From: a virus
Taxonomy: Duplodnaviria; Caudoviricetes
IMG/VR virus record: IMGVR_UViG_3300021062_000003
Span: 1 to 52,078 of that record
DNA length: 52,078 bases
Strand: one strand, 5' to 3'
The notes below the pieces were generated by a model, which was not told the DNA's origin, did no database searches, and was given only the letters and a program-made list of their open reading frames with translations. Each line of letters opens with the position of its first letter. Position 1 is the first letter of the stretch. A program made the translations under genes and the position numbers. Below are positions 2,423 through 49,296 of the stretch, in pieces.

Positions 2423-2438
2423 GTCCCCAATTGGGGAC
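2423..2438. repeat. GTCCCCAATTGGGGAC palindrome, copy 1 (intergenic)
   Basis: Perfect match; extends to TTGTCCCCAATTGGGGACAA; just upstream of the RBS of the gene at 2461. Confidence 0.98.
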
Positions 2439-2460
2439 AATATCAGGAGAACGAAATGCC

Positions 2461-2766
2461 ATGACCACCCAAGCACAAAAGCAGTACAGGGCGGACCGCC
2501 TCAGCTTTGCCGTGTCTGATGCTGGCGAAGCGATGGCAGCCGCAAGCGGGCACGGCCTGGAGCTGCGCCGCTGCGGATCGTATCACTACCAGATCAGGCC
2601 AGTCCAAGGCCCGGAATGGATCATCAACCTCTGGCCGTCAACGGGCAAGATGCACTTTGACGACATACCCGAGGCCGGCAAGGCTGGACGGGCGCCGCGG
2701 ATTCAGCCCAAACAGAAATGGACGCTGCTTGATATTGTGCAACTTGTGATAGGAGCAAAGCAATGA
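2461..2766 (+). CDS. hypothetical phage protein
   Basis: ORF with AGGAG upstream, in the + early cluster. Confidence 0.7.
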   Translation: MTTQAQKQYRADRLSFAVSDAGEAMAAASGHGLELRRCGSYHYQIRPVQGPEWIINLWPSTGKMHFDDIPEAGKAGRAPRIQPKQKWTLLDIVQLVIGAKQ

Positions 2767-2809
2767 GAAATCTCGCGTCCGAGCCGTTGATGGGGTGGGA
2801 GGGGGAACG

Positions 2810-3034
2810 ATGAAAACTAAAGGCATCATCGGTCAACGCATCGTCGAGATTCGACAGACGAAGCATCCGGCGGACAAGGAACACAATCGTCCCGCGTGCG
2901 TGGAAGTAACGCACATCGTCCTAGAGAACGGCACCACACTGATTCCCAACGTAATCGAACGTGAGGACTACTACGCGACGGAGTTTCTGGTCATCAAGAA
3001 GCCTCGTGGTGGAAAGGCGGCCCCCCATGCGTGA
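2810..3034 (+). CDS. hypothetical phage protein
   Basis: GGAGG RBS; overlaps the next start. Confidence 0.65.
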   Translation: MKTKGIIGQRIVEIRQTKHPADKEHNRPACVEVTHIVLENGTTLIPNVIEREDYYATEFLVIKKPRGGKAAPHA

Positions 3035-3404
3035 GAACAACGCTAGGGCGGAACATACGCCTGGACTGCTCCATATCGAAGAGCCGCACGAATCCACCTT
3101 TCAAGACACTATTGCAATCATGGGAGGCGAGACTGGAGAGGCACAGATTGCCGCCGTGTACCCAATGGGTGATGACGACGAGGTTGGTACCAAAGAGTGT
3201 CGGTATCACGCCGAATCTCTCGCCAACGCCCGCCGCCTCGTCACCTGCTGGAACTGCCACGACGATTTGGTCGCGGCGTGCCGAGAGGCGTTGAAGGTCG
3301 TTGACGAATGTTATGAAGCGACCGGCCACATCCACGTAGCCAAAACTTCTAATCAGCGGATGCTCATCGACGCCGCCCTCGCGAAAGCAGGGCGGCAGAC
3401 GTGA
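3027..3404 (+). CDS. hypothetical phage protein
   Basis: Overlap-coupled; ANARRLVTCWN...DLVAACREAL pattern common in small phage early proteins. Confidence 0.7.
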   Translation: MRENNARAEHTPGLLHIEEPHESTFQDTIAIMGGETGEAQIAAVYPMGDDDEVGTKECRYHAESLANARRLVTCWNCHDDLVAACREALKVVDECYEATGHIHVAKTSNQRMLIDAALAKAGRQT

Positions 3405-3829
3405 CGACGTTCGACCCGAACAAGCCGGTGCAGACGCGCAATGGACGCAAGGTCAAGGTGTTCATGACCGATGCCGGTGGCACACATCCGATCCTGGGAG
3501 CCATCAAATTGGACGCTTCCATGTGGGGGTCGGCGCGATGGGCCGAGAATGGATGCTATTGCTGCGATGGCAGAGAACACTTCTACGACCTCATCAACGT
3601 CCCCGAGCCGGTGGTGAGCTATCAGGTGGTGTGCGCCCGCGTTGGCGAAGGCTCGGTTCCCTATATTGGAATGCCGTACACGTCAATTGAAACAGCGAGG
3701 CTCGATGCAAAGGGGCTGGCTAATCGCGGCCATTATCCCGCCTTCATCCTCAAGCTCACCCGCACCGGCCCCGCCTCCGCGCCGAGCGTGAGCGTGGAGC
3801 GGGTGGAGTTGGAAGGGGGTGTCGCATGA
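3401..3829 (+). CDS. hypothetical phage protein
   Basis: GTGA coupling; FDPNKPVQTRNGRKV N-terminus typical of a small phage family. Confidence 0.7.
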   Translation: MTTFDPNKPVQTRNGRKVKVFMTDAGGTHPILGAIKLDASMWGSARWAENGCYCCDGREHFYDLINVPEPVVSYQVVCARVGEGSVPYIGMPYTSIETARLDAKGLANRGHYPAFILKLTRTGPASAPSVSVERVELEGGVA

Positions 3830-4083
3830 ACTACGACACTTGCACGATTGATGAACTGCGCGATGAGTTGGCGCGGGTCAAGATTGAGGCATCGAATCTT
3901 CGAGCTAGCAATCGACAACTGCAAATCGACCGCGATGCCCTGCTTGCGCTTACCTCCAAGATGGAGAGGTCGGAGCGTTTGATCGCGTGGGTGGTTAATG
4001 ATCGGCAGATTGAGTTCATTCAGAGCGGCGTCGTGCGTGATCGCATCAAGCAATGTCTTGTGAAGGACCAGCCCCATGCCTAA
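3826..4083 (+). CDS. hypothetical coiled-coil protein
   Basis: ATGA coupling, heptad-like composition. Confidence 0.65.
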   Translation: MNYDTCTIDELRDELARVKIEASNLRASNRQLQIDRDALLALTSKMERSERLIAWVVNDRQIEFIQSGVVRDRIKQCLVKDQPHA

Positions 4084-4423
4084 CCCCACGCCCGAGCAAG
4101 TCGTCGTCGCGATGGCGCAGGCGTGCGAGGACGCTTGCAACGCTGGATATTCATTGCCGCAGGATGTGGAGATTCTGGCGGGAGCCAAGCGTCGAAGCGA
4201 TGAACGTGTCGCCCGAATGTACCTCACTCTCGCCCCCGTAGCCGCGCTGATGCGTGCGGCGGAAGCGGTCAGAGACTACCACCTGATGCCAGCGAACGAG
4301 TTTGACGCCAAGTATCCCCACTGGGCGACTCTTGACGAAGGCGACGTACTGATGCTTCAACTCGACCAAGCCCTCGCCGCCCTGCACGCCATCGCGAAGG
4401 AGTCCCCCCATGCCAAACAATGA
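4076..4423 (+). CDS. hypothetical phage protein
   Basis: Overlap-coupled ORF with AAGGA upstream. Confidence 0.65.
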   Translation: MPNPTPEQVVVAMAQACEDACNAGYSLPQDVEILAGAKRRSDERVARMYLTLAPVAALMRAAEAVRDYHLMPANEFDAKYPHWATLDEGDVLMLQLDQALAALHAIAKESPHAKQ

Positions 4424-6058: not shown

Positions 6059-6086
6059 AAACCCCGGAATCGCCACCGGGGTTTTT
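6059..6086. terminator. intrinsic terminator between convergent operons
   Basis: AAACCCCGG-8 nt-CCGGGGTTTTT hairpin. Confidence 0.8.
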
Positions 6087-6963
6087 ATTCGGCCGTGTCG
6101 AAAATGTGCCGCAGCACCGTGTTCCGGTCGGCTTTGGCCTTGACGATCCACTCCCGAACGTCCTTGAAGCCCTCTGGCGGCCAGCAGAGCCGAACCGACC
6201 GGCAACCCGGCTTCAATGCCTCGACGAGCGCCTTGGCCCCTTCCTGGCCCGCACACCGGCCGAGCTTGTCGGGCTTGTCAAAGTCGCCGATGACGACGGT
6301 TTCCCGATCCCGGCACATGCGGATACAGGGCACGACGCCGCCCCGGCAGTGTGGTCGGCCGATGGCTTGGAATCCGAGATCGAGCAAGGCCGCGCAATCG
6401 CTGGCACCCTCGACGATGACGGCGCCCCGCGTCAGATCATGGTCGTGAGCGTAAAACAAACCTTCCCGACTACCTGTGACGCTGTATTTCTTGCCATGAT
6501 CCGGCCGAAGCCTGACCCCGACGACCTGCCCCGGATTGCCGTCCACCATTTCCAGCCGCATCGGGTATGCCCAGCAGCCGCGGGCATTGCAAGGTGTGTT
6601 GATGGCCTGTAGTTCGGCTTGGGGTGCCCATCCCGTCCGCAGCCGGTGCAGGCTTGGGAACGCAACCCCAAGACGTTGAGCATGTTTCAGCAAATGTTCA
6701 GGCTCGCATTCCTGAAACCATTTCTTTGCCAAAGGCGCGAAGTTCGGTGGCGGCAACGGTGGCGGCGGCTGATATCTCGCCCGCGGAATGCTGGCGTCGA
6801 GAACGTGCATGTAGCCGCCAAACTCGCCGTGCTTGTCTTTCAGCGGCCGATCGGACGGGACGCGCATGCACTTGGCTTCACGGCCATCGTCGGTGTACGT
6901 ACACCATGTATCGTGGTCGCACACGGGGCAATGGTGTGATCGACTGACTCGCTTGTACCTCAT
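6085..6963 (-). CDS. DNA primase (Zn-binding domain + TOPRIM)
   Basis: CPVC..WC...CMR Zn motif; IVEGASD and IGDFD TOPRIM acidic motifs; KDVREW. Confidence 0.8.
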   Translation of the reverse strand: MRYKRVSRSHHCPVCDHDTWCTYTDDGREAKCMRVPSDRPLKDKHGEFGGYMHVLDASIPRARYQPPPPLPPPNFAPLAKKWFQECEPEHLLKHAQRLGVAFPSLHRLRTGWAPQAELQAINTPCNARGCWAYPMRLEMVDGNPGQVVGVRLRPDHGKKYSVTGSREGLFYAHDHDLTRGAVIVEGASDCAALLDLGFQAIGRPHCRGGVVPCIRMCRDRETVVIGDFDKPDKLGRCAGQEGAKALVEALKPGCRSVRLCWPPEGFKDVREWIVKAKADRNTVLRHIFDTAE

Positions 6964-8636
6964 ACTCCAACCGGCTCTTGTTCAGGCGAAAGTTTTTTCC
7001 AGCCATTCTTCGACAGTGCGTTCATATATGCACCCGCCTTTTGGAAGCTCCAACTTGCCGCATCTTCGTACCCCTTGTTCACCAGGAAGCGGGCTTGCTT
7101 GAAGGTGCAAAGGCCATTGGCTCGGCGTTCTTTGAAGCCATCAATGAGCTTGCTCGCCTCGGAGAACGTCAGATTCGCTGGGTTGGGCACGCCAGCATTC
7201 GTCAGAACCTCGATCTGACGATCTGTGGGCTTGCGTCCCTTGTGCCACGCGGCTTCGCGGCCCGGCGTGATGTCCAGCACATCGAAGGGGTTCATGTCCT
7301 GCACGCGGAACTTGGCCTTCGCCTTGATGGCTCGCCGCTTGGCCTCGCTGATATCACGCTCGGCTTGCTCCAGGGCCGCTGCCATGTCAACTTCTTCGTT
7401 GCCCTTCTTCTTGGCGATGTCGCGGGCCTTGGCAACCACCTCATCCGACAGTTTGCCGCCCAAGATGTCTTCCGGCGCAATCAGCTTGTGCCGACCGCTG
7501 TTGCCCACAAAGTCAAGGATCAAGCATGACGGCTTGGCCGACCCCGCAATCCGATTCTTTCGCTGGGCAGGATCGGCAACGTGGTCGATGACGCCGGGCA
7601 GAATTCGCATTCCCCGGCCGGCCATCTGAGCGTACAACGCCCGGCTCTTGGTCGGACGGGCCATGACGACGACTTCAATGCCCGGCGAGTCGAAGCCTTC
7701 CGTGGCGACCCCGACGTTGCAAAGGGTCTGAAATCGGCCGGCCGCATAGTCCGCGAGCATCTGTCGCCGCTCATCCTTGGGTGTCCCGCCGTGGACGATC
7801 CGGGCCGACTGGGGATTGTGGCGGTTGAATATCTCGCTGATCCGCTCGGCTTGCTTCACCGTTCCGGCAAAGACCAATGTGCGACGGTTGCCTGCTATCT
7901 CGATTGTCGGATTGACGACGCCATGAAGATTTGATTCCTCCTCCAGCAGTTCAGCCAGATCGGCGCCGTTCAGGTCGCCCGCCGTCGTTCGCACGTTCGA
8001 GAAGTCCAAGCCATCGACAAACACCTGCCGACTCTTGACCGGGACCAAGTAACCGCCGTGGATCGCGTCGAGGATGCCATATTCGTAGGCGACCGACTGG
8101 TAAATCTGGCCCAACGCTTCTTCATCGCCCCGATCCGGCGTGGCCGTGACGCCCAGGTGCTTGCATTGCGGGTTCGAGGCACAGAAGTAATCCGTGACCT
8201 TGCGATACGTTTCGGCGGTCGAGTGATGGGCCTCATCGGTCCAGAATAGGCAGAAGTCTGACGGACGGAATCGATCCATCCGGCCGCCTCGACTCATGGA
8301 AAGCGTCTGGACCGTGGCGAACACGACGCGGGCCGGATCGGCTCCGAACATGCCCGGAGTTTCGTCTGACCACTGATCGGCCATTTCGATCGCGACATGC
8401 TCGCCCGTGATTTTCTCGATCGCCTTCGCGCCCTGAAAAATCAGTTCTTCTCTGTGGGCGATGCACATGACCCGCTTGCGTGGGTTGGCGTCAAGGTGTC
8501 GTCGGATGATTTCGGCCGCCGTGACGGTCTTGCCGCATCCAGTGGGCAGCGTAACCAGCGTCGATTGCACCGTCTGGAACTGATCCATGACGGCATCGAC
8601 GGCCTCCTGCTGGTAATCACGCAAGCTGATGGTCAA
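6960..8636 (-). CDS. superfamily 2 DEAD/DEAH-box helicase
   Basis: LRDYQ, PTGCGKT, DEAHH, TATPDR, TEGFD, QMAGRGMR motifs. Confidence 0.93.
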   Translation of the reverse strand: MTISLRDYQQEAVDAVMDQFQTVQSTLVTLPTGCGKTVTAAEIIRRHLDANPRKRVMCIAHREELIFQGAKAIEKITGEHVAIEMADQWSDETPGMFGADPARVVFATVQTLSMSRGGRMDRFRPSDFCLFWTDEAHHSTAETYRKVTDYFCASNPQCKHLGVTATPDRGDEEALGQIYQSVAYEYGILDAIHGGYLVPVKSRQVFVDGLDFSNVRTTAGDLNGADLAELLEEESNLHGVVNPTIEIAGNRRTLVFAGTVKQAERISEIFNRHNPQSARIVHGGTPKDERRQMLADYAAGRFQTLCNVGVATEGFDSPGIEVVVMARPTKSRALYAQMAGRGMRILPGVIDHVADPAQRKNRIAGSAKPSCLILDFVGNSGRHKLIAPEDILGGKLSDEVVAKARDIAKKKGNEEVDMAAALEQAERDISEAKRRAIKAKAKFRVQDMNPFDVLDITPGREAAWHKGRKPTDRQIEVLTNAGVPNPANLTFSEASKLIDGFKERRANGLCTFKQARFLVNKGYEDAASWSFQKAGAYMNALSKNGWKKLSPEQEPVGV

Positions 8637-9010
8637 AACGGCACTCCTGAGATATCAACGTCTTGAGCCCGCCGCGTGTTGGCCTCGGCACAGTTGCGGG
8701 AGCGGGTTTTCTTCACCAGATGCCGAGGATTGCAGCATGACGGGTAAAGGCACTGGTGGTCGATCTGCCAAAGCTCCGGTATGGTTGCCACGAACACGGC
8801 ATATGTGACCCGATGCACCCACAACGGCTTGCCCTTGATCTTGATTCGTCCATATCCCTTCGCATCCTTCGCGCCCTGCCACTCCCAGCACGGCCCCAAC
8901 TTGTGCCCCCGGTCCACCTGCCTGATCTTCGACATCATCCGCAGAAGATCAGGCAGGTCCAAGTGGAGCCGCAGCCGCTTGGCGGGTTTGATGCAGCGGG
9001 CACGGCTCAT
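8633..9010 (-). CDS. HNH endonuclease (His-Me finger)
   Basis: CWEWQG...GYGRI...VHRVTY...IDHQC..PSCCNPRHL; start placed at the ATGA overlap (9010). Confidence 0.85.
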   Translation of the reverse strand: MSRARCIKPAKRLRLHLDLPDLLRMMSKIRQVDRGHKLGPCWEWQGAKDAKGYGRIKIKGKPLWVHRVTYAVFVATIPELWQIDHQCLYPSCCNPRHLVKKTRSRNCAEANTRRAQDVDISGVPF

Positions 9011-9786
9011 TTCTTCTCGGGCTGTAGTTCTGCGATCTTCTTGGGCAGATAGCCCGTGTTGCGACACTCCTTGCATCCCTCGCCCTTGCAGGCTTTGCAG
9101 ACGACGTGAGGCATGCCGAACTTCATTTCATGGATGATCTGATGGAACAAGCTGGCGACGTTCTGGACGTTGATATACGCCGCCGCCCGCTTGTTCTTCG
9201 CAAAGAACTCGGCAACCTCATCACGCAGGCCGCCGACTTGGCGCGAGAACGATAGGTATTGCGGCCGGGTGGCGAAAATCTTGCCCATGCCATCCGCCTT
9301 CACCGGGTTCTTTTCGCCGTCGAGGATGACGGGCTCGGGCTTGTCGGGATCAGGCTCATCAGCCAATACCTTGTTGGCCGCCTCTGACAGCACCGCCGCC
9401 GTCAGCAACACGTTGCCAGTGTCGGGGTCCGTCGCCATCTTGACGGCCTCGCGAAGCACTTGCCGCCGCTTGGGCTTGGGCACTGTCTGGATGACACGGG
9501 CCTGCGCCTCGTTGGCAATGCCAACGTCCCCAATTGGGGACACTTCTTCGGCCACCTTTGACGCGTCGATCAGGCGGTACGCCTGCGATCGTCCCCATCC
9601 AAAGTGGTACTTGCAGAACTCGTCGAAGCTGTCGAACTCATCCCGGTACAGCTTGGACTTTTGAAGCTCCACCAGCGCCTTTCCCGCTTCAACGAAGCTG
9701 AGATTGTTGGCGTGGACAATCGCCATCAGCTTCTCTTTTTTGTTCTGCTCGGACTTGCTCAATACGATTTCGGTTGTGGTAGTCAT
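9007..9786 (-). CDS. predicted HTH DNA-binding protein with C-terminal Cys4 zinc finger; gene contains a palindrome copy
   Basis: FVEAGKALVEL..SKLYR..FDSFDEFCKYHFGWGRSQAYRLIDA helical/HTH pattern (DUF3102/ParB-HTH-like), then SPIGD, NEAQAR; C-term CKACKGEGCKEC. Confidence 0.7.
   Translation of the reverse strand: MTTTTEIVLSKSEQNKKEKLMAIVHANNLSFVEAGKALVELQKSKLYRDEFDSFDEFCKYHFGWGRSQAYRLIDASKVAEEVSPIGDVGIANEAQARVIQTVPKPKRRQVLREAVKMATDPDTGNVLLTAAVLSEAANKVLADEPDPDKPEPVILDGEKNPVKADGMGKIFATRPQYLSFSRQVGGLRDEVAEFFAKNKRAAAYINVQNVASLFHQIIHEMKFGMPHVVCKACKGEGCKECRNTGYLPKKIAELQPEKK
9526..9541. repeat. palindrome copy 2 (inside the HTH gene, encodes SPIGD)
   Basis: Perfect match; S-P-I-G-D are residues 83-87. 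Confidence 0.98.
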
Positions 9787-11533: not shown

Positions 11534-12427
11534 TTACTCCTTTGGTGGTTTTGCTTCCTTCGCCTTCGTGAACCGCAGTTGCCGGTACGAAGTGGGCTCC
11601 ACGACGTAACCGGCCCGGTTGATGAGCATTCGCTTGACCTTGCCGAGATTGCACAGGCCAAGCTCGGCCTCGCCCATCTGCACCATGACTTCGGCGGTGA
11701 ACAGGTCGGCAAGCTCCTCGGCCTTTTTTGCCGCCTCCTTTGCGTCTCGCCATTTTCGCACTAGGTCATCGGGCAACTGGCACTCGGCCAGCGGCGTCAC
11801 GATGACACGTCGCAAGGTGTCCACCGTCGGTCCTTGCTTTTCCTGATCCGGCACCACACCGCCCACGACATGCTTCTGCCACCATGCGAGAGCCCGTTTC
11901 TCGATCGCATCACACAGGGCTTGGTCGCGGGGAATGACATACCACTGAGGCCCACGGCGGCCAGTCAGCAGGGCAGGCACGCACACACGCTTGAGCGATG
12001 GACAGGCGATCATCTGCCCGACGCACTGGATGAGGACTCGCATGGGAACCATGTCGCTGTTGTTGTCACCCCACGCCTCCAGATCGGCGAAGGGGTTGTA
12101 GACGCCGGCCGACTTGGCCTCGATGCCATCTTCGTCATCAGTGGTCATCGCGTCCAGGGTGGCCGCCATGACGCCATTCTCGGCGACACGCCATTGATTG
12201 CGCTTGATCGGCTTGCCCAGCTTGGCCGAGGCGAACTTGACCAGCCCATCCTCGACATGATTGCCAAACTCGGCCGCCTCGCCGGCCTCATCCGGCTCCG
12301 TGGGCATGGTCTTTTCCACCCACACGTCGCCAGCCGTCTTGAACTGGTTTTCATTGAAGATCGCACTCAAATCCGAAGCCGTAAGGTACTTTTTCCGCCG
12401 CTCCAGATGCTCGGGTGTCATCGGCAT
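11534..12427 (-). CDS. YqaJ-like viral recombinase exonuclease
   Basis: RRKKYLTASD, VWVEKT, GNHVE, ATLDA...IEAK, IQCVGQM (lambda-exonuclease family). Confidence 0.88.
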   Translation of the reverse strand: MPMTPEHLERRKKYLTASDLSAIFNENQFKTAGDVWVEKTMPTEPDEAGEAAEFGNHVEDGLVKFASAKLGKPIKRNQWRVAENGVMAATLDAMTTDDEDGIEAKSAGVYNPFADLEAWGDNNSDMVPMRVLIQCVGQMIACPSLKRVCVPALLTGRRGPQWYVIPRDQALCDAIEKRALAWWQKHVVGGVVPDQEKQGPTVDTLRRVIVTPLAECQLPDDLVRKWRDAKEAAKKAEELADLFTAEVMVQMGEAELGLCNLGKVKRMLINRAGYVVEPTSYRQLRFTKAKEAKPPKE

Positions 12428-12759
12428 GACTTTGACTCCGCTCGCGAGTGATCGACAATCGCCGCAAGACTGTTATCTTCGCCAAAGAACACTTCGACCC
12501 AATCGTTGTAATGGCCGTCTTTGTGCAACTGCCGAAGCCGCTCTTTGAGACGATGACGGCGATCGTCGCCTTGACTGGATTCGTCCCAGCCCTCTTTGCT
12601 TCCATCTGGAGGAATGAAGAAAGAGCAATACCCGTTTATCATCGCCGGCGATAGATCGCTCGCGGATGGAACGATCGCCTTGGCTTCTGCGTGAACCCGC
12701 TTCGCATCTGCCTTACAGATTACCGTGACGACAATGGCGTGATGCCTGATGTAACCCAT
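12418..12759 (-). CDS. conserved hypothetical phage protein
   Basis: First gene of the leftward operon, AGGAG RBS; MGYIRHHAIVVT...PDGSKEGW. Confidence 0.7.
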   Translation of the reverse strand: MGYIRHHAIVVTVICKADAKRVHAEAKAIVPSASDLSPAMINGYCSFFIPPDGSKEGWDESSQGDDRRHRLKERLRQLHKDGHYNDWVEVFFGEDNSLAAIVDHSRAESKSCR

Positions 12760-12778: not shown

Positions 12779-12794
12779 GTCCCCAATTGGGGAC
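12779..12794. repeat. palindrome copy 3 (operator-like position)
   Basis: Perfect match; between the leftward -10 and the RBS of the first gene. Confidence 0.98.
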
Positions 12795-16409: not shown

Positions 16410-16425
16410 GTCCCCAATTGGGGAC
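16410..16425. repeat. palindrome copy 4 (intergenic, before the GroES-like gene)
   Basis: Perfect match. Confidence 0.98.
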
Positions 16426-22868: not shown

Positions 22869-25800
22869 TCACGCGGCGGGCTGCCGCTTTTCGTTCCGCT
22901 GGCGAAGGGCCGATCCGATGGCCCTTGCATAATCCGCCAGCCATTCCCTGTGCAGGGATAATACCCTGCTTTTCTCATCCGGTGCAAGTCCCTTGAGATA
23001 TGCCGGAATATCGGCCTTTTCCAGCTTGCCCAAGGGAGCCTTGTCCTGCATGGACGACTTCAAGCCCTTGATGACCTTCGCCAGTTCGGCCGGATCGTCG
23101 CCGATCGCCGCCAGGATCAGCTTGGCGGCCTCATCGGGCTGCTCGCGACTGATGGCCTTCGCCACACCGTCATGCAGCGGATTGATCTGGAAGTCCGTGC
23201 CGCTTTGGTTGTCTTTCCCCTGATCCTTGATCCACTTGCCGACGCGGGCTCGGGTCTGCTGGTAGCCCCGCAGCCGATCAGACTTCGCACGGTCGGCGTT
23301 GTCGATCAATCCCTTGACGGCCGGCGTGTTCCGCTTCTGCATGTCCGTCACGGAGTCGACCAGGTTGAACTTGCCGTATCGGCCCTTGCCTGTGACGGGT
23401 CCGGTCAAGGCATCGAACAGGTCCGCGATATACGACACCTTGGGCATCATCGCCACAGCCAGCTTTTCGGCGCTCGATCCGTTGCTCCAGTGGAAGGCGT
23501 CAACGAACCTCTGGGCCGATCCCATGACGCCAGCTTCCCACAGGGCCGACACTGCCATTTCCCAGTAGGCTTCGTCTCGCTTTTTGATTTCCTCGCCCTT
23601 GAACAGACGACGGAGTATCATCGCCGCCGCTCCGGCGCCCATCATGCCAACCAACAGCTTCGCCAGACCCTCGGCCGCATCGGCCATTCGCCTTGGGTCT
23701 TTGCTCTCGATCGCGGCTCGGGCCTCGTTGACGGCGCGGGCCGCTGACTTGGTGGTGCCCACGAAATAGCTGTTGTACGCGAAGATGAAGTTGAGGACCG
23801 GCACATTCTGGATCAAGGCGCGTCGATGCGGGTCCTCGGCCGTGTACTGAGTCACCTTGACGAGATTCTGAACGATCTTGTTCGCCGTCGCCTGAGATAT
23901 CACGCCCTTGCGAGCGTCGACAATCTCCGAACTCGTCAGGCGAAGCTCTTTGGCGATCTGTACCGACTTCATCGGCAGGCCGAACTTACGCCACTGATCG
24001 ACCATCGCACGACCCGCGTTGCCGATGGCGAGATTGTTGAACTGGTTCACCCAATGCGATCCCACGCCACGGGCGGCCACGTCGCGAGCGATCCGGGCGA
24101 TGTCCTCTGGAACATGGCCCGATCGAATCGTCCATTCCATGACGGATCGGTTGACGGCCCCCATTTCCGCGAGCGTTTGGGCTGAGGCCCGAGGATGCGA
24201 GATCGTTTCCATCAACCCCTTGGCGAGATTGACGAATCCGGTGTACCGCGGGCCTTGCACGGCGACTTGCGGAATGTTGGGGATCACGGCCGCCGATGTC
24301 TGTTGGCTGCCGATCAGGCCGTCAATGACACGGCCGGTACGCTTCCACCATGATCGCGGTTCGCCGCCGAGCCGGCCATACGGCCGCCCGTTCCATACAC
24401 GAATCACGTCATCGAAAGCGGCTTGCGATCCCTTGGCTCGGCCGTGGCGGGCTCGCAGTTCGTCCAGCAGCGTGTCGGGCTGATCCTTCGTGACTTGACC
24501 GAACTTTTCGATGAAGTAAATCCGCTGGGCCATGCGGCGGCCGGCCGACATGATCGACAGGTACGGATCGCTCTCCAGAATCGGCATCTGCGTCTTGCCG
24601 ACCGTGACGTGGCTGGCGAAATTCTTGATCTTGCGGTAATCCTCGATCGCGCCGACTTCCCGCACTGACGACGGATCGAACATTTCTTTCAGCGTGGCCT
24701 TTGCCTGCTGCGGAGTCGTGCCGTTCTCGTTGGCAACCATCGTCACAATGGCGTCATACAGCGGGCCGCTTTGAATGTGCATCGCATCCCAGGCGTCCGG
24801 CGTCAGTTCGCGGAGCATCCGGCCGCCCTTGGCCTTGGCGAACGGCGTGCCGTCGCTTCGCTTGACGCCCTTGGCGATCGCCTCATCGCCCGTCACGTCC
24901 ATCATCAGTTGGTAGGTGTCAAGCCATTTCTGGATGCGCGGGTTCGGGGCCGTCAACCGGCCGGCCGGAGTATCTTCGAGCAACCGCTGCTGATTCGAGT
25001 AGGTCGTGCCGCGTTCCACCTTGTCCAGCCATGCCCGATCGTCGGCCTTCAACCCCTTGTAGGCGTCGTGGGCCTGATTGGCGAACTTGCCGACCAGTGT
25101 TGCCGTCTTGCTGCTGGCGTCATCGAGAAAGCTGGCGACCAGTTTGCCCGCCCGCGTGTCGCGGATTCGCTCGGCCATTTCGCCGGTGAAGGCATTGGCC
25201 GCGATGTACGCTTGCTTCCCGGCCGCCTTGACGACATCGGTGATAGCACTGATGTCCACGAATCCGCCGCGGGCTCCAGGGTACAGGCCGCGTGTCCGAA
25301 GTTGACCCTCGACATCCTTGCGTGCCAACGCTTTCGTCTCTTTGGAGAGATTCGATTCCCCGGTGAACGGCAGAGCGTTTTGCTCGCCGGTGGCCGCGTC
25401 TACGGTCGGATTGCCGAACAGGTCGGGCTTTACCGCCGACGTGTCCCCAATTGGGGACAGCTTCGACGCCGAATCACTCCCTCCATCACTTGCCCCGGCG
25501 ACTCTCTCGCCTGAATCATTCTCATCGTCTGAAAGATCATCGACTTGTACTTCGCCACCTTGCGACCCTCCCGCCGCTTCTCCGCTTTGCGACTGAGGTA
25601 CTGTTGGACTGTCATCGTTGAGTTGGAATCCATCTTTGAACTTCCGCTTCTCCCCCATGACCGGCAGGCCGTAATCGTCGATGTCCTCAAGCTCTCCTTC
25701 AACCATTTTATCCGGTGCAGCCTGTCGCCGCGAGCCTTCATCCATCGGCACGGGCGGCAAGCCGTCAGTCGGGATAATCACGCCATCGGCCAGGACTTTC

Positions 25801-28591: not shown

Positions 28592-29805
28592 TACTGCCGC
28601 GCTCCTTGCGTCTGTTGGGCTGCCATCGCCCGGATCATTTGCAACAACCGCTGCCGTGCGGATTGGTCGCCAGCCTGTGCCGCCGCCACAAGCTGCGGAT
28701 TCATCATAGCAACGGCTTGGGCCGCTTGCAGATGGACCGGGCTTGCGGCCTGCGGAGCCGGTGGCTGAGCTTGCGGCCCATTGCCGGCCGCCGTCGCCTG
28801 AATGTACTGATCGGCGTTCACAGGAGCCGGAGCCGTGTCCCCAATTGGGGACGGCTGGCTCGCCGCAGGCGGCTGGCCTTGCTGCGGAGCCGGCGGACCC
28901 ATCGGGCCGCCTTGCTGCTGGGGCTGGTAGACGCCGATCAATCCTTGGGCCGCCTGCTGTGCCGCTTGCTCGGCCTGCATCAGTTGCGGGTTGGGCTGGG
29001 CCAACGCCTGCTCATACTCAGCCTCAACTTGTTGCAAGGCGCGTTGCATGGCGTCGGGGTCAAACTCGTAAGCGGGATTGCTCTGGATGGCCCGGACCTT
29101 CATTTCAAACCGCTTGCCGAGCATTTCCCGCCGAGTCTGATCCATCTTGATGACCCGCTCCAGGTTGGAGTCGGCCATTTCCTTGCGGACCATGCCGGCT
29201 TGCACCTGATTGGGGTCGATTTGGTATTGCTGCTGCTGGGCGAACTTCTCTTGCTGCAAGTCAAGTTGCTTCTGCATCCTGATGTCGTCGATAGCCTTGT
29301 CCACGTCGCTTCCGTGGATAAGCTGCAACCGCAGCACTTTTTCGGTGAACTGCTTTTCGCTGATGCGGCCCGCCTCAAGCTCGTTGATGGATTGCTCAAC
29401 CGACGAACGGAGCCGCGTCTGACGGGCTGATTCCTTGGCAAGATCGGCCGCCGTGATCTGTCGTTGCTCGTTGAGCAAGTCGGCCGAGTCCTGCATGCGG
29501 TTCTCTCGCCGCACGTCGAGTCCGAACTGCCGTTCATCCATCTCGAACCGTCGATCGTTGTTCTGTTGGGTTCGGTCAAACTGCCGCTGATCGAACTCGA
29601 AACGACGGTCCCGGTCGGCGCGGGTGAGGGTGTCTTGCTCACGCTGGTATGCGTCATTGTCGAGCGTTCGATTCCATTGACGCTCCTGAGCTTGCCGCTG
29701 GGCGAGCATCTGCATGATCGCCATTTGCTGCTGGATACGCGCGCGGTCTCGCTCTTCGGCCATGCCGTATCCGCCCAAATAGCCACTGAGGAAGTCTTGG
29801 GGCAT
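28591..29805 (-). CDS. Gln-rich coiled-coil ejection-like protein
   Basis: Q/R/E-rich composition and position. Confidence 0.6.
   Translation of the reverse strand: MPQDFLSGYLGGYGMAEERDRARIQQQMAIMQMLAQRQAQERQWNRTLDNDAYQREQDTLTRADRDRRFEFDQRQFDRTQQNNDRRFEMDERQFGLDVRRENRMQDSADLLNEQRQITAADLAKESARQTRLRSSVEQSINELEAGRISEKQFTEKVLRLQLIHGSDVDKAIDDIRMQKQLDLQQEKFAQQQQYQIDPNQVQAGMVRKEMADSNLERVIKMDQTRREMLGKRFEMKVRAIQSNPAYEFDPDAMQRALQQVEAEYEQALAQPNPQLMQAEQAAQQAAQGLIGVYQPQQQGGPMGPPAPQQGQPPAASQPSPIGDTAPAPVNADQYIQATAAGNGPQAQPPAPQAASPVHLQAAQAVAMMNPQLVAAAQAGDQSARQRLLQMIRAMAAQQTQGARQ
28837..28852. repeat. palindrome copy 6 (in CDS, SPIGD)
   Basis: Perfect match in a Pro/Gln/Ala linker. Confidence 0.98.
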
Positions 29806-37663: not shown

Positions 37664-37679
37664 GTCCCCAATTGGGGAA
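37664..37679. repeat. palindrome copy 7 (one mismatch; intergenic after the major capsid gene)
   Basis: GTCCCCAATTGGGGAA. Confidence 0.93.
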
Positions 37680-38853: not shown

Positions 38854-39939
38854 TTACTGTCCGATGATTCCCTTTTTTGCGAGAATCTTGTTGATCTTCA
38901 CAGCAGCGGCCGAGTTTGGCTCTCCGCTTTCCGGCTGCGGGATTGGACCGGCTCCGCTTCCCGGCCGGTTGCTCCTGAGCTTCGCGGCGGCGGCGGCCTT
39001 TTCGGCGGCGGCCTTTTCGGATTGCTTGCTCACGAAGTCCTTGTTCTTGATTTTGTGGGCGGCCTCGATCGCCTGCTGGACCGTGATCGGCTTTCCGCTT
39101 TGTGCCGCGCCTTTCAGCATGGCATTGGCGAACGAAGCGACATTCTTGCGTGCTTCAAGCTGGCCCTTGGACAATCCATGTCGCGGGCCTTTGCCGAACA
39201 CTTCATCGGCTCCGATGCCGTCAATGATCCCATCCACCATCTGATCGGCGAGATACTGGGTGAGGCTTTGAACTTGCTCCATCGCCTGACGGTGCTGATC
39301 GGCCATCGCCTTGATCTGAGTCGCCATCTGCCGCATCGGCTTGACGACGGGCTCGGACAACTCAGGGAAGTCTTTTTCAAGCTGAGCGATCTTGGCGTTG
39401 TCGATGCCAAAGTCGCTGAGATCGGGCTGATTCGCGTTGGCAGCCTGTTGGGCCGCAGTAGCCGCTTGAGCGTCCGCCTGTGCCTTTTGTGCGGCGGCGG
39501 CTGGATCGGGAGCCCCTTCATCCTTCGCGCCAGCGGCGGCCAGTTGCTCGAGCGCCGCAAGATCGGGCTCGGTCGAGGCGGCCGACTTTGCCATCAGTTT
39601 GTCGAGAAGCGACTTGGGCAGCTTCGCAATCTCGGCCACGTCAACGCCCGTCTCTTTCGCCAGATCGGCGTACTGAGCATTGTCGTCCGGCTTGGTGGCG
39701 GCATCGACGACCGGAGCGGCTTCGTCCGCTTTGTCCCCAATTGGGGACGCGGGAGCTTCTGTTTTCTTCTTGAAGATGTCATTGATGCGTGAAGCTGATC
39801 CGGCGTTGGGATCAGCGGGGAGCGCAGAAGAACCGCCACCGACGGGGTTATCGACGGTGGCGGTGTTCGTTTCGGCGGCATTTCCACCCGTCGCCGATCC
39901 ACCCAAGCCTGTGCTTGCACCAGCCTGTAACTGCGTCAT
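38854..39939 (-). CDS. capsid scaffolding protein
   Basis: Ala/acidic low-complexity helical protein between portal and major capsid. Confidence 0.65.
   Translation of the reverse strand: MTQLQAGASTGLGGSATGGNAAETNTATVDNPVGGGSSALPADPNAGSASRINDIFKKKTEAPASPIGDKADEAAPVVDAATKPDDNAQYADLAKETGVDVAEIAKLPKSLLDKLMAKSAASTEPDLAALEQLAAAGAKDEGAPDPAAAAQKAQADAQAATAAQQAANANQPDLSDFGIDNAKIAQLEKDFPELSEPVVKPMRQMATQIKAMADQHRQAMEQVQSLTQYLADQMVDGIIDGIGADEVFGKGPRHGLSKGQLEARKNVASFANAMLKGAAQSGKPITVQQAIEAAHKIKNKDFVSKQSEKAAAEKAAAAAKLRSNRPGSGAGPIPQPESGEPNSAAAVKINKILAKKGIIGQ
39733..39748. repeat. palindrome copy 8 (in CDS, SPIGD)
   Basis: Perfect match. Confidence 0.98.
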
Positions 39940-44458: not shown

Positions 44459-44852
44459 CGCTCACCTTGTCTTGCGAAGCGCCGACGATGTGTTCCTGTC
44501 GCGGCTTGCCGAGGATGCGGTCCATGACGACTTGGCTGGCCTCCATGCGAATGTCGAGCGGAACAAGCTCCTCACGCATGACGGCAACCATCAGCGACAA
44601 GGCATACTCGGCATCATCGCCGTAGACAGTCTGGACCGACTTCTTGAAACGGACCACTTCACCCTTGGAGTCGCGGCGGCATTTCTTGAGCCGCTGCTGG
44701 CTGATGACGATTGAATCCTCGAACGTCTGGCAGCCGTTGAGTATCGGCGATCGGTCTTTTCCGCGAAGCGTGAACGCTTCCGGGCCGCCTTCATCTTCGT
44801 CCCCAATTGGGGACGCGAGATCGTCATTGTATCCATCATCTTCGGCGGTCAT
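44340..44852 (-). CDS. probable terminase small subunit
   Basis: Immediately upstream of TerL; RMEASQVVMDRILGKPRQ motif. Confidence 0.6.
   Translation of the reverse strand: MTAEDDGYNDDLASPIGDEDEGGPEAFTLRGKDRSPILNGCQTFEDSIVISQQRLKKCRRDSKGEVVRFKKSVQTVYGDDAEYALSLMVAVMREELVPLDIRMEASQVVMDRILGKPRQEHIVGASQDKVSDVLSEQTRNRVEQMGEIPGLAPRPVALPGDGNSNPNGRQ
44799..44814. repeat. palindrome copy 9 (in CDS, SPIGD)
   Basis: Perfect match in the acidic N-terminus. Confidence 0.98.
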
Positions 44853-46406: not shown

Positions 46407-46455
46407 GAAAAGGGCCGGCCGCCCCCGAGAGTGGAGGCGGCCGGTTTTACTTTTT
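46407..46455. terminator. intrinsic, possibly bidirectional terminator
   Basis: CCGGCCGCC/GGCGGCCGG stem with TTTT downstream and AAAA upstream. Confidence 0.65.
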
Positions 46456-47198: not shown

Positions 47199-47214
47199 GT
47201 CCCCAATTGGGGAC
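47199..47214. repeat. palindrome copy 10 (long intergenic region)
   Basis: Perfect match. Confidence 0.98.
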
Positions 47215-47514: not shown

Positions 47515-47539
47515 AGCCCGGACTTGTTCCGGGCTTTTT
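47515..47539 (+). terminator. intrinsic terminator
   Basis: AGCCCGGA-5 nt-TCCGGGCT + T tract. Confidence 0.7.
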
Positions 47540-48158: not shown

Positions 48159-48194
48159 ATGTTACTTGACAAACAACCGGGTGTCAAGCACAAT
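48159..48194. promoter_or_regulatory. overlapping divergent sigma70-like promoters
   Basis: + strand TTGACA(48166)-17-CACAAT; - strand TTGACA(48187)-17-TAACAT; forms CTTGACA-N10-TGTCAAG. Confidence 0.6.
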
Positions 48195-48203
48195 GGAACC
48201 GGA

Positions 48204-48530
48204 ATGAACACCCCACCACCCAGCCCAGTCTACCAGATCATGCCCTGGCCCGGCCTGTTCAAGCTCCTGCCCTCCAACCCCGCCCCAGTCACGCTGCACG
48301 TCAGGACCACAGGTGCGACGATATGGTACCACCTAATACGGGGCCAATGGGTGCGGTATTCGGGCTTTATTGAGCACGGTAATACGCCAAATCGGCCATT
48401 GGAGGTGGGCGGGCATGGGAGAGAGGGCATTGTTCCCCTGCCGCCGCCGCCAACTGCAAACCCCGGCTTGTCGACACCCTACCCCCGGCAGTCTCCGAGC
48501 GGTGGACCGACCCCATTCTTGACCCAATGA
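48204..48530 (+). CDS. hypothetical protein
   Basis: ATG just after the rightward promoter. Confidence 0.4.
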   Translation: MNTPPPSPVYQIMPWPGLFKLLPSNPAPVTLHVRTTGATIWYHLIRGQWVRYSGFIEHGNTPNRPLEVGGHGREGIVPLPPPPTANPGLSTPYPRQSPSGGPTPFLTQ

Positions 48531-48553
48531 ACGCGGTTTTCGCCCGTTCGAGT

Positions 48554-48569
48554 GTCCCCAATTGGGGAC
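48554..48569. repeat. palindrome copy 11 (before the HTH gene RBS)
   Basis: Perfect match. Confidence 0.98.
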
Positions 48570-48588
48570 GAAAGGTGATAGCAGACCA

Positions 48589-48987
48589 ATGGCGCGTGGC
48601 AAGGCTGATCGTGGTGTGTTATCCCGCTTGGCGTGGGTAAAAACGCGGAATCGTGCCATTGCGGCCCGTGTGAAAGGGGGATACAGCATCACGCAAGTAG
48701 CCGCACGCTATCAACTGAGGCGTGAACAGGTCCGGGAGATCGTCCGGGCCGAGCTTGGGTATCTGCCGCCAGCCAGGAAGGGGAAAGGCTCTACTGCGGC
48801 CGTAATAGCGGGCTTGCAGGCCGGCAAATCGGTCGCAACCGTGGCGCGGGAAGGGTCGCTGGGACGGGATGCCGTCCGCCGAATCCGTGCCGAATGCATC
48901 GCCGCCGGCGTAATCCTATGCTATCACTGCACTTGCACGCCAAAGCACGTGTGCAATACAGCCGGAAACGTCAATCCATCCGCATAA
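48589..48987 (+). CDS. tandem HTH transcription regulator (Mor/sigma-region-4-like)
   Basis: RNRAIAARVKGGYSITQVAARYQLRREQVREIV and AGKSVATVAREGSLGRDAVRRIR. Confidence 0.7.
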   Translation: MARGKADRGVLSRLAWVKTRNRAIAARVKGGYSITQVAARYQLRREQVREIVRAELGYLPPARKGKGSTAAVIAGLQAGKSVATVAREGSLGRDAVRRIRAECIAAGVILCYHCTCTPKHVCNTAGNVNPSA

Positions 48988-49280
48988 ACGGATGATATCC
49001 ATTGATCCGGATGAACGGATTGAGGGCACGGGCCGGCCCTGTGGGCTGTTGAGTGGTGAGGGGGTATGTCGACCAGGGTATGAGGGCAGAGAGGGATTCT
49101 GGAGGCAATGCGGGGCTTGGATGAGGGCGAGGCGCTGCTGATGCGAAAACGCGATGGCGTGATCTGCTGCGGCTCCGATGTACCGATGTATGATACATTG
49201 GTACTTTTTGCCCACATCCGCGTTTTCGAACCCAAAAACGACAATCGGCCCGACTGGAGCCGGGGCCGATTGCAGGAGTT

Positions 49281-49296
49281 GTCGCCAATTGGGGAC
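49281..49296. repeat. palindrome copy 12 (one mismatch)
   Basis: GTCGCCAATTGGGGAC. Confidence 0.93.

What the first reader, a model, noticed from the sequence alone, without database searches (positions are those of the whole stretch)
2423..49296. Genome-wide set of 12 copies of a 16-bp palindrome (GTCCCCAATTGGGGAC)
Seen: perfect copies start at 2423, 9526, 12779, 16410, 25443, 28837, 39733, 44799, 47199 and 48554; one-mismatch copies start at 37664 and 49281. They cover every module at 0.7-9 kb spacing and are densest at 44.8-49.3 kb. A given 16-mer is expected about once per 4^16 bases, so this is not chance. Flanks are unrelated, so it is not a MITE or CRISPR repeat. Established: 16-bp dispersed palindromes are the architecture of parS (ParB), Noc sites and mycobacteriophage stoperators. 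Inference: it is the site for a dimeric phage protein that marks the whole genome for repression, organisation, segregation or self/non-self recognition, although I see no ParA or ParB CTPase domain.
Basis: partly seen in the sequence, partly recalled or inferred. Interest (0 to 1): 0.9.

Follow-up and report, generated by a model that had tools for sequence, protein, structure and literature searches.

The report
Twelve ParT-type parS sites in phage
The repeated 16-base palindrome is most likely the docking site of the phage's own ParB-like (ParT-type) DNA-binding protein; related genes usually hold one such site inside themselves, but this phage carries twelve across its genome.

Summary
There are 10 perfect and 2 one-mismatch copies at the stated coordinates, against 0.04 expected. 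The window is a complete 52-kb soil phage genome.

One copy lies inside gene 9007-9786(-). Its product is 37% identical over 116 residues to ParT of the Streptomyces plasmid SCP2. ParT is a ParB-like protein without a CTPase domain. Experiments showed that it loads at an inverted repeat inside its own gene and slides away without CTP (PMC12260392). That published parS core matches the phage palindrome at 14 of 16 positions and sits at the homologous codons (S-P-I-G-D).

The family is large and mostly viral. In it, 28 of 49 distinct homologs carry a perfect palindrome of at least 14 bp at that spot, against 3.2% of control windows. Recognition-helix residues track the half-site bases.

The phage has no ParA, no ParB CTPase and no integrase. 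Its ParT-like gene sits with a helicase and a primase-like gene. Of 15 related virus records checked, only 2 have more than one perfect copy (5 and 2).

Best reading: a genome-wide array of loading sites for an orphan ParT-like dimer. What the array is for (replication, organisation or silencing) is inferred. It is a new variant of a known kind.

The parts
9007..9786 (-). ParT-like gene (259 aa), the proposed binder. It has an N-terminal ParB-type helix-turn-helix domain and a C-terminal helical domain with a CxxCxGxGCxxC zinc motif.
   Evidence: BLASTP against SCP2 ParT gives 37% identity over 116 aa, E 7e-15. Against a Streptomyces-type homolog it gives 38% over 132 aa, E 1e-16. The AF2 model has pLDDT 92.8. 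Residues 10-145 align to Spo0J/ParB DNA-binding domains at Z 9.1-9.6, Noc at 8.0 and KorB at 6.6. A homodimer is predicted. There is no Pfam or PHROG hit.
9526..9541 (.). parS-like palindrome inside the ParT-like gene; the ancestral, family-typical copy.
   Evidence: Perfect copy. It encodes V-S-P-I-G-D at residues 82-87, directly after the recognition helix. This is the position homologous to the tested parS in SCP2 parT.
2423..2438 (.). palindrome copy, intergenic
   Evidence: Perfect. It lies 43 nt after the stop of 1078-2379(+) and 22 nt before the ATG at 2461, just 5' of the ribosome-binding site.
12779..12794 (.). palindrome copy in the divergent intergenic region
   Evidence: Perfect. 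It lies 19 nt upstream of the start of 12418-12759(-) and 105 nt before 12900(+).
16410..16425 (.). palindrome copy, intergenic
   Evidence: Perfect. It lies 2 nt after the stop of 15907-16407(+) and 16 nt before the ATG of the Cpn10-like gene at 16442.
25443..25458 (.). palindrome copy inside the 1743-aa gene 22869-28100(-)
   Evidence: Perfect. In frame as S-P-I-G-D at about residue 881.
28837..28852 (.). palindrome copy inside gene 28591-29805(-)
   Evidence: Perfect. In frame as S-P-I-G-D at about residue 318 of 404.
37664..37679 (.). palindrome copy with one mismatch, intergenic
   Evidence: The last base is A instead of C. It lies between the stop of 37684-38793(-) and the start of 36456-37616(-).
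39733..39748 (.). palindrome copy inside gene 38854-39939(-)
   Evidence: Perfect. In frame as S-P-I-G-D at about residue 64 of 361.
44799..44814 (.). palindrome copy inside ORF 44340-44852(-), next to the large terminase gene
   Evidence: Perfect. In frame as S-P-I-G-D at about residue 13 of 170. Two relatives at 60% identity have ASATGD and EGPIPD at this place and align without a gap there.
47199..47214 (.). palindrome copy, intergenic
   Evidence: Perfect. It abuts the T-tract of a terminator-like hairpin on the minus strand, 47258-47224.
48554..48569 (.). palindrome copy, intergenic
   Evidence: Perfect. It lies 19 nt before the ATG at 48589 of an ORF with weak helix-turn-helix hits.
49281..49296 (.). 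palindrome copy with one mismatch, intergenic
   Evidence: The fourth base is G instead of C. It lies 4 nt after the stop of 49301-49594(-), between terminator-like hairpins at 49180-49204(+) and 49262-49246(-).
6960..8636 (-). SF2 (ResIII/SNF2-type) helicase, a conserved neighbour of ParT-like genes in phages
   Evidence: Pfam ResIII 4e-30 and Helicase_C 2e-16. A homolog matched in 8 of 54 viral loci; in the five whose coordinates I compared it lies directly downstream of the ParT-like gene.
6085..6924 (-). primase-like gene of the same module
   Evidence: PHROG 239, DNA primase/helicase, 1.9e-7. Homologs lie downstream in 6 of 54 viral loci.
8633..9010 (-). HNH endonuclease gene lying between the ParT-like gene and the helicase
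   Evidence: Pfam HNH_3 1.2e-6. It is absent from this position in the syntenic viral loci, with a hit in 1 of 54 that lies elsewhere. It is therefore probably an insertion and not part of the system.

Best explanation
The palindrome (Y)GTCCCCAATTGGGGAC(R) is a ParT-type parS, the specific docking site of a dimer of the phage's own ParT-like protein (gene 9007-9786). ParT-like genes normally carry one such site inside their own coding sequence, in the loop after the recognition helix. This phage kept that copy and acquired eleven more. They sit wherever the sequence is tolerated: in short intergenic gaps, and in variable protein segments where the frame reads S-P-I-G-D. By analogy with SCP2 ParT, each site would load a clamp-like dimer that escapes onto neighbouring DNA without CTP. 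Twelve sites no more than 9 kb apart could then keep the whole 52-kb chromosome decorated. No ParA is encoded, and the ParA-contacting N-terminal peptide of ParT is missing, so the array does not serve a phage-encoded ParA. The gene belongs to a conserved module with a helicase and a primase-like gene, so I favour a role in replication or in organising replicating phage DNA. Shown here: the sites, the homology, the family-wide palindrome inside the gene, and the link between helix residues and half-site bases. Inferred: binding in this phage, sliding, and the purpose.
For: 1. Homology. The gene product is 37% identical over 116 aa to SCP2 ParT (E 7e-15). The alignment covers helix alpha2 and the DNA-binding domain.

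2. Experimental anchor. ParT binds an 18-bp inverted repeat inside parT (ChIP-seq summit; BLI KD 680 nM) and diffuses without CTP (PMC12260392, sections 5, 7 and 13). The preprint's methods give a 22-bp parS sequence. SCP2 parT holds its 18-bp core at 3566-3583, encoding V-S-P-I-G-D. The phage 16-mer matches that core at 14 of 16 positions and sits at the homologous codons.

3. Family rule. 28 of 49 distinct viral homologs have a perfect palindrome of at least 14 bp within 180 nt after the recognition helix. Only 402 of 12,600 control windows do. About eight more have arms of 7-11 nt split by 1-4 nt. Against synonymous recoding, 24 of 49 reach p <= 0.05 and 15 of 49 reach p <= 0.01, so the DNA is selected, not only the peptide.

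4. Specificity. Helices with AYR go with CC at half-site positions 3-4, and AYQ with AC, AA or GC, with no exception among the palindromes read by eye (about 13 R-type and 14 Q-type; not tallied by a script). In one search, the two residues before AY track the next base: SQ with C in 7 of 8, AH with T in 5 of 6, QQ with A in 2 of 2, PR with T in 3 of 3, TR with G in 2 of 2. The phage protein has SQAYR, as do 6 of the 7 actinobacterial homologs listed there that carry the identical half-site.

5. Structure. The fold resembles the ParB, Noc and KorB DNA-binding domains (Z 9.6 to 6.6).

6. Dimer. Homodimer score 0.80 against a best control of 0.00. That mark was reached by 20 of 30 proteins solved as pairs of one chain and by 1 of 23 solved as single chains. 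The runs share at least 76% of contacts and pLDDT is at least 76. Contacts fall in residues 8-49 and 170-251. ParB dimers are solved, so the pass may partly reflect likeness to them.

7. A second case. Virus record G015 (77.7 kb, complete) has 5 perfect and 2 one-mismatch copies of its own, different palindrome. One is in its ParT-like gene and two are in other ORFs, in the same S-x-I-x-D frame.

8. Missing partners. There is no ParB_N, HTH_ParB, AAA_31 or CbiA match in six frames.
Against: No binding was measured for this protein. The sequence link to ParT covers only the N-terminal 116-132 residues, and the C-terminal zinc-motif domain is different. The structural Z scores (up to 9.6) are middling for a helical domain; a Rubisco assembly factor scores as high (Z 9.9), and Foldseek E-values were only 0.02-0.8. 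The residue-to-base association is not significant once relatedness is taken into account: there are 4 independent pairs on supported branches, all in the expected direction, sign test p = 0.125. Twelve of the 49 distinct homologs show no repeat of six or more base pairs in or near this loop, or only one more than 100 nt beyond it. Most relatives have a single site; only 2 of 15 records checked have more than one perfect copy. The reason for twelve copies is therefore unexplained, and sliding and genome coating are extrapolated from one plasmid protein. Four intergenic sites lie 16-22 nt before start codons, which would also suit a static roadblock or a translational role.
Confidence: 0.75

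Rival explanations
1. The ParT-like protein binds the sites, but as a static repressor. The sites would then be dispersed operators or roadblocks that control transcription, as with the twelve KorB operators of RK2, the P1 C1 operators or mycobacteriophage stoperators.
For: Seven of 12 sites are intergenic (P = 4e-6). Four sit 16-22 nt before start codons. One lies in the divergent region at 12.8 kb, one directly precedes a helix-turn-helix gene, and two lie beside terminator-like hairpins. KorB is a ParB relative with twelve 16-bp sites on a ~60-kb plasmid (PMC13768133 passage; PMC11790492 section 4).
Against: Five sites lie deep inside long genes. No site overlaps a promoter-like match, and such matches are not enriched over shuffles (8 against 6.5, and 7 against 4.8). 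However, the host's promoter type is unknown. The intergenic bias can equally reflect tolerance. Most relatives have only the copy inside the gene, which is not an operator position.
Confidence: 0.15
2. A different protein reads the sites, for example the helix-turn-helix ORF at 48589-48987 or a host factor. The copy inside 9007-9786 would then be a coincidence of the S-P-I-G-D motif.
For: A site lies 19 nt upstream of the 48589 ORF, which has weak HTH_7 and HTH_29 hits. Binding is untested.
Against: The palindrome inside the gene is a family-wide feature selected at DNA level. It has been shown by experiment to be the cognate site of ParT. The helix residues match those of homologs with the identical half-site.
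Confidence: 0.07
3. The copies are a small mobile or gene-converted palindromic cassette that inserts in frame, like the Rickettsia palindromic elements, and has no binding function of its own.
For: All coding copies use one frame: 5 of 5 here, the two copies in other ORFs of G015 plus the one in its ParT-like gene, and one more in another ORF of G011.
Against: The flanks share nothing beyond one base on each side. In the one coding copy that could be compared with relatives, the palindrome aligns without a gap there to similar peptides. The other three host genes were not compared. The other two frames would encode Trp, Cys or His, so selection on the proteins explains the frame bias.
Confidence: 0.03
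4. The element acts as a hairpin in RNA or single-stranded DNA, as a processing, stability or termination signal, rather than as a duplex binding site.
For: It can form a 6-bp GC-rich stem with an AAUU loop. Four copies lie just 5' of ribosome-binding sites. In other bacteria the same 16-mer occurs next to T-runs or inside longer hairpins with variable loops.
Against: The central AATT is invariant in 12 of 12 copies, and it is self-complementary across the family (AATT, CATG). A hairpin loop does not need this. There is no T-run after the phage copies. A homologous site is a proven duplex binding site.
Confidence: 0.03

Closest known systems
ParT-parS of Streptomyces coelicolor plasmid SCP2 (ParATS; PMC12260392)
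   Same: The DNA-binding domain is homologous (37% over 116 aa). There is no CTPase domain. The palindrome lies inside the protein's own gene at the same codons, and 14 of 16 core bases are identical. A dimer is predicted with N-terminal and C-terminal contacts.
   Different: This is a phage, not a plasmid. It has 12 sites; SCP2 has one validated parS (plus the exact window 16-mer once, in SCP2.15c). It has no ParA and no long N-terminal ParA-contacting peptide (residue 24 here aligns to ParT residue 85). The C-terminal domain is different and carries a zinc motif. The gene is linked to a helicase and a primase-like gene.
KorB and its OB operators on IncP plasmid RK2
   Same: A ParB-type helix-turn-helix protein. 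Twelve copies of a 16-bp palindrome are spread over a replicon of similar size (~60 kb), some far from promoters.
   Different: KorB has a CTPase domain, a ParA partner (IncC, recalled) and clamp-locking partners KorA and TrbA. None of these is found here.
Canonical ParB-parS and Noc-NBS
   Same: 16-bp palindromes read by a dimer through a similar fold. A parS inside the parB gene occurs in Bacillus (recalled). Noc marks many chromosomal sites.
   Different: The Pfam models ParB_N and HTH_ParB do not match. There is no CTP switch and no membrane or ParA link.
Lambda O protein and ori inside gene O (recalled)
   Same: A binding site lies inside the binder's own gene, in a tolerant linker, within a replication module.
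   Different: There is one palindrome rather than an array of iterons, and the fold is unrelated. A replication role is not shown.
Dispersed phage operators: mycobacteriophage stoperators, P1 C1 operators, phiC31 CIRs (recalled)
   Same: Many copies of one short site spread over a phage genome.
   Different: Those sites belong to repressors of temperate phages and are mostly asymmetric or tied to promoters. No integrase is found here, and no repressor was identified among the genes scanned.

Membership tests
ParT / ParT-type parS | Sequence homology to the ParT DNA-binding (M) domain and helix alpha2 | tested here: met
   BLASTP gives 37% identity over 116 aa, E 7e-15, against SCP2.04c. Against a Streptomyces-type homolog it gives 38% over 132 aa.
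ParT / ParT-type parS | No CTPase (ParB_N) domain | tested here: met
   No ParB_N match in six frames at E <= 1. There is no Pfam hit on the protein.
ParT / ParT-type parS | Inverted-repeat parS inside the protein's own coding sequence | tested here: met
   The copy at 9526-9541 encodes S-P-I-G-D after the recognition helix. The site is at the same place and is nearly the same as in SCP2 parT.
ParT / ParT-type parS | Constitutive dimer with a second, N-terminal contact (clamp) | tested here: met
   This is a prediction only. The score is 0.80 against a best control of 0.00, with contacts in residues 8-49 and 170-251. The pass may partly reflect likeness to solved ParB dimers.
ParT / ParT-type parS | Cognate ParA and a disordered N-terminal ParA-activating peptide | tested here: not met
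   There is no AAA_31 or CbiA match. tblastn with SCP2 ParA gives nothing below E 1.7. The protein starts about 60 residues later than ParT in the alignment.
ParT / ParT-type parS | Specific binding and CTP-independent diffusion on DNA | not testable with these tools
   This needs purified protein, with BLI, EMSA, ChIP-seq or optical tweezers.
Canonical type-I ParB / Noc / KorB | ParB_N CTPase domain and a match to the HTH_ParB profile | tested here: not met
   Searches give no match. The only resemblance is in fold (Z 6.6-9.6).
Pfam DUF3102 | Profile match | tested here: not met
   No match at E <= 10 in six frames. The family appears on only 16% of one nearby Atlas cluster.
Lambda-type initiator with internal origin | Array of iterons inside the initiator gene | tested here: not met
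   There is one copy inside the gene. The link to a helicase and a primase-like gene is present.
Host repeat (REP-like or uptake sequence) | The same motif is abundant in a plausible host at similar density | tested here: not met
   The scan of one genome for each of 185,579 species returned at least 120 loci, against about 139 expected by chance. Multi-copy genomes hold 3-14 copies per 1.1-3.1 Mb, and the four CPR-type genomes among them are low in GC (35-42%) and carry the 16-mer in a different, nested context. The true host is unknown.

The most novel reading that the evidence does not exclude
A nucleotide-independent ParB-like clamp has been taken over by phages as a whole-genome loading system. 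Thousands of phage lineages would carry a ParT-like gene with a parS inside it and a readable helix-to-base code. In this phage the parS has multiplied to twelve sites, so that clamps cover the entire chromosome. The clamps would work with the adjacent helicase and primase to start or organise replication at many places, or to mark phage DNA as self. That would be a ParB-family function outside segregation and without ParA.
Probability: 0.2. Interest if true: 0.85.

Novelty: new variant of a known kind. Interest (0 to 1): 0.62.

Why it matters
ParT was described in 2025 from one plasmid. That paper reports about 100 structural homologs, mainly in Actinomycetota and Cyanobacteriota. In the sections I read it names phage only as the phiBT1 integration site.

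Here the family appears far larger and mostly viral. There are 8,252 representative clusters at E <= 0.001, and the nearest Atlas clusters are 86-100% viral. It usually comes without ParA, and often next to a helicase.

The palindrome inside the gene gives each member a predicted cognate site. The residue-to-base pattern suggests that specificity can be read from sequence.

This phage is the extreme case and a natural test. It asks what a CTP-free sliding clamp does when it is loaded at twelve sites on a 52-kb genome with no partition ATPase.

Tried and rejected
**Relatives of the phage**
- Megablast of 25 kb against GenBank phages gave no match.
- The large terminase has no close relative in IMG/VR. 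Only 21 proteins match in the large protein set, the best at 69% identity on short contigs.
- tblastn of the ParT-like protein and of homolog P0058 against GenBank phages gave no match. I cannot explain this, given the size of the family.

**Motif elsewhere**
- The exact 16-mer occurs once each in 20 IMG/VR contigs, which is about chance.

**Ideas dropped**
- Depletion of the half-site hexamer outside the sites: a Markov expectation of about 9 does not support it.
- Even spacing of the sites: P = 0.065, not significant.
- Overlap with promoters: promoter-like matches are not enriched over shuffles and none overlaps a site.
- Significance of the residue-base covariation on a tree: 11 changes of each trait, but only 4 independent pairs on supported branches, sign test p = 0.125.

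**Family searches**
- The alignment profile against PDB sequences gave nothing meaningful.
- Pfam on 45 family members gave no shared family.
- PHROGs on 10 structural genes named the large terminase, and gave one further weak match (major tail protein, E 5e-5, on 18558-20690).
- No tRNA genes were found.

**Literature**
- A search for DUF3102 found 3 papers, none functional by the listing.
- A search for the octamer core plus 'phage' found only unrelated primer hits in the 15 of 176 papers listed.
- A search for ParT, parS and CTP-independent found 6 papers, 5 listed, none on phages by title or abstract.
- Supplementary files were not requested. The ParT paper's datasets of homologs might list phage or prophage members that I could not see.

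**Sequencing runs**
- No RNA holder is listed. Two soil-metagenome DNA runs hold the stretch, both kept as contigs and both possibly the source. I did not run read laying, because contigs cannot show molecule ends.

Full report
**Observation.** The 16-mer occurs 10 times perfectly and twice with one mismatch, at exactly the coordinates given. Shuffled sequence gives 0.04 matches. The window is a whole virus record of 52,078 bases with a 127-base terminal repeat, rated complete. No other 10-16-mer is comparably over-represented. The flanks are unrelated, except that base -1 is a pyrimidine in 12 of 12 copies and base +1 is a purine in 11 of 12.

**Placement.** I used a simple codon-usage gene map. 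Seven copies lie in the 6.9% of the genome that is non-coding (P = 4e-6). Four of these sit 16-22 nt before a start codon, and two sit beside terminator-like hairpins. Five copies lie inside genes, and all five are read in the same frame as S-P-I-G-D. Spacing is 727-9033 bp and is not significantly more even than random (P = 0.065).

**The lead.** A scan of one genome for each of 185,579 species found the exact 16-mer about as often as chance predicts (at least 120 loci, about 139 expected). Two subsets stood out.
- Small low-GC genomes, many labelled Candidatus Moraniibacteriota, hold 5-14 copies each. There the 16-mer is the centre of a longer nested palindrome with a variable loop. This is a different repeat, at roughly 18-fold lower density, in genomes of 35-42% GC against about 60% for the phage.
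- Streptomyces and relatives hold a single copy inside a conserved gene, in the same S-P-I-G-D frame, despite 70% GC. Five such genomes have that copy and no other within 2 mismatches, apart from chance near-matches.

The translated gene is homologous to the phage gene 9007-9786, which holds the copy at 9526 (38% over 132 aa, E 1e-16).

**The family.** An exhaustive HMMER search found 8,252 representative clusters at E <= 0.001 and 1,484 at E <= 1e-10. There is no Pfam, PHROG or PDB-sequence match. The nearest Atlas clusters are 86-100% viral. In an alignment of 154 members, the loop after the conserved helix 'AY(R/Q)LI' is very often S-P-I-G-D or a variant that can also be encoded by a palindrome.

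DNA for 54 viral homologs confirmed this.
- 28 of 49 distinct genes have a perfect palindrome of at least 14 bp within 180 nt after the helix. Only 402 of 12,600 control windows do.
- About eight more have arms of 7-11 nt separated by 1-4 nt.
- The general form has outer TGTC...GACA and a centre of AATT or CATG.
- Against random synonymous recoding, 24 of 49 reach p <= 0.05 and 15 of 49 reach p <= 0.01. The DNA itself is therefore under selection.

**Specificity.** Helices with AYR go with CC at half-site positions 3-4, and AYQ with AC, AA or GC, with no exception among the palindromes read by eye (about 13 R-type and 14 Q-type; not tallied by a script). In proteins, R pairs with P-x-G loops 63 times and with T-x-V once. 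Q pairs with T-x-V 10 times and with P-x-G twice. These are the 76 of 154 rows that could be classed.

The two residues before AY track the next base outward:
- SQ with C, 7 of 8
- AH with T, 5 of 6
- QQ with A, 2 of 2
- PR with T, 3 of 3
- TR with G, 2 of 2

The phage protein has SQAYR, like the actinobacterial homologs with the identical half-site. On a tree, each trait changes 11 times. Only 4 independent pairs rest on supported branches. All go the expected way, but the sign test gives p = 0.125. The code is therefore suggestive, not proven.

**Identification.** tblastn of the Streptomyces homolog against plasmids found 76 records. In the best ones the gene lies next to a ParA gene. In SCP2 it is SCP2.04c, which overlaps parA by 4 bases. 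SCP2.04c is ParT (PMC12260392; abstract and sections 5, 7 and 13 read). The paper reports the following.
- ParT is a ParB-like protein without a CTPase fold.
- It binds an 18-bp inverted repeat inside its own coding sequence (ChIP-seq summit; BLI KD 680 nM).
- It diffuses onto neighbouring DNA without nucleotide and gives a ChIP peak about 5 kb wide.
- It activates ParA through an N-terminal peptide.

The preprint's methods spell out a 22-bp parS. Its 18-bp core is the only long palindrome in SCP2 parT, at 3566-3583, and it encodes V-S-P-I-G-D. The phage palindrome matches it at 14 of 16 core positions and lies at the homologous codons. The phage protein is 37% identical to ParT over 116 residues (E 7e-15).

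**Structure.** The AlphaFold model is confident (pLDDT 92.8). Residues 10-145 align to the DNA-binding domains listed below.

| Structure | Z |
|---|---|
| Spo0J/ParB | 9.1-9.6 |
| Noc | 8.0 |
| KorB | 6.6 |
| SopB | 5.7 |

A Rubisco assembly factor scores as high (Z 9.9), and Foldseek E-values are weak (0.02-0.8). The fold evidence is therefore only supportive.

A homodimer is predicted with a score of 0.80 against a best control of 0.00. That mark was reached by 20 of 30 proteins solved as pairs of one chain and by 1 of 23 solved as single chains. The runs agree in at least 76% of contacts and pLDDT is at least 76. Contacts in residues 8-49 and 170-251 resemble the closed clamp that the ParT authors describe. 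Solved ParB dimers may contribute to the pass.

**What differs from ParT.**
- The phage encodes no ParA: there is no AAA_31 or CbiA match, and tblastn with SCP2 ParA gives E >= 1.7.
- It has no ParB_N or HTH_ParB match and no tyrosine integrase.
- The protein lacks the long N-terminal extension of ParT and has a different C-terminal domain with a zinc motif.
- In 8 of 54 viral loci a homolog of the phage's SF2 helicase matched; in the five whose coordinates I compared it directly follows the ParT-like gene. In 6 of 54 a primase-like gene follows as well. In this phage an HNH gene sits between them.
- Only 1 of 54 viral loci has a ParA-like gene upstream.

**Copy number in relatives.** I checked 15 virus records whole with a degenerate pattern.
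- G015 (77.7 kb, complete) has 5 perfect copies of its own, different palindrome, and 2 more with one mismatch. Two of the perfect copies lie in other ORFs, in the same S-x-I-x-D frame.
- G021 has 2 copies.
- The rest have one or none detectable by this pattern.

Twelve copies is therefore the extreme of a variable trait.

In the one coding copy that could be compared with relatives, proteins at 60% identity show similar peptides and align without a gap there. This argues for point substitution in a variable tail rather than insertion. The shared frame is best explained by protein tolerance, because the other two frames would give Trp, Cys or His.

**Reading.** The sites are ParT-type parS sites for the phage's own ParT-like dimer (confidence 0.75). 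If the protein behaves like ParT, twelve loading sites no more than 9 kb apart, each feeding clamps over kilobases, would decorate the whole genome. That step is inference. The purpose is open. I favour replication or organisation of replicating DNA because of the helicase-primase linkage. Static repression in the manner of KorB is the main alternative; RK2 has twelve KorB sites on about 60 kb. Hairpin, mobile-cassette and other-binder readings are unlikely, for the reasons given under the rivals.

**Verdict.** This is a new variant of a recently described kind. It also suggests that ParT-like proteins, each with a palindrome inside its own gene, are widespread in phages.

Noticed in passing
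L025, L026, L032, L034, L038, L040, L053, L056, L093 and others (genomes G001-G004): Small low-GC genomes, many labelled Candidatus Moraniibacteriota, carry 5-14 copies of the same 16-mer. There it is the centre of a longer nested palindrome (GGGACTAA, then the 16-mer, then TTAGTCCC), and the central four bases vary. It looks like a separate hairpin repeat family.
   Followed up: partly
L205 (SCP2) 14885-14900: Plasmid SCP2 holds the exact window 16-mer at the 3' end of SCP2.15c, a small helix-turn-helix gene, again read as S-P-I-G-D. It differs at two positions from ParT's own parS. L050, on another Streptomyces plasmid, has a similar gene end.
   Followed up: partly
L199-L202 (virus record G015), sites at 20417, 21811, 22183, 22229, 38114, 55332, 67101: A complete 77.7-kb phage has 5 perfect and 2 one-mismatch copies of its own ParT-type palindrome, which differs from the window's. 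Two lie in other ORFs, in the S-T-I-V-D frame.
   Followed up: partly
L204 (virus record G011), contig position 24144: In this phage the ParT-like gene has an S-T-M-V-D-type palindrome. The phage also holds an S-P-I-G-D-type palindrome, in frame, inside an unrelated 382-aa ORF.
   Followed up: no
protein P0162: One family member has three tandem S-P-I-G-type peptides (two S-P-I-G-D, one S-P-I-G-V) in the loop, which suggests three palindromes inside the gene.
   Followed up: no
window 13049-13288 (+): A small protein matches the Acb2/Tad1 hairpin domain (E 4e-18). That family is known, from recall, as sponges for anti-phage signalling nucleotides.
   Followed up: no
window 1078-2379 (+): A 433-aa protein has an ArdC N-terminal domain hit and weak methyltransferase hits. 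It may be an anti-restriction/methylase fusion.
   Followed up: no
window 51043-52078, continuing into 1-162, and 198-1001: An AAA_5 (MoxR-like) ATPase gene runs across the ends of the record and is followed by a DUF7192 protein. The record start is therefore arbitrary.
   Followed up: no
window 48569-48588 and 51943-51962: A 20-base stretch directly after the site at 48554 recurs at 95% identity inside the ATPase gene. A second, weaker repeat follows 74 bases on.
   Followed up: no
L195, L197, L192, L198 (virus records of 40-99 kb, three of them 92-99 kb): This is a subgroup of ParT-like genes with an S-K-I-F-D loop and an AAAATTTT-centred palindrome. L197 has a ParA-like gene directly upstream, so these may be phage-plasmids with a true ParA-ParT pair.
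   Followed up: no
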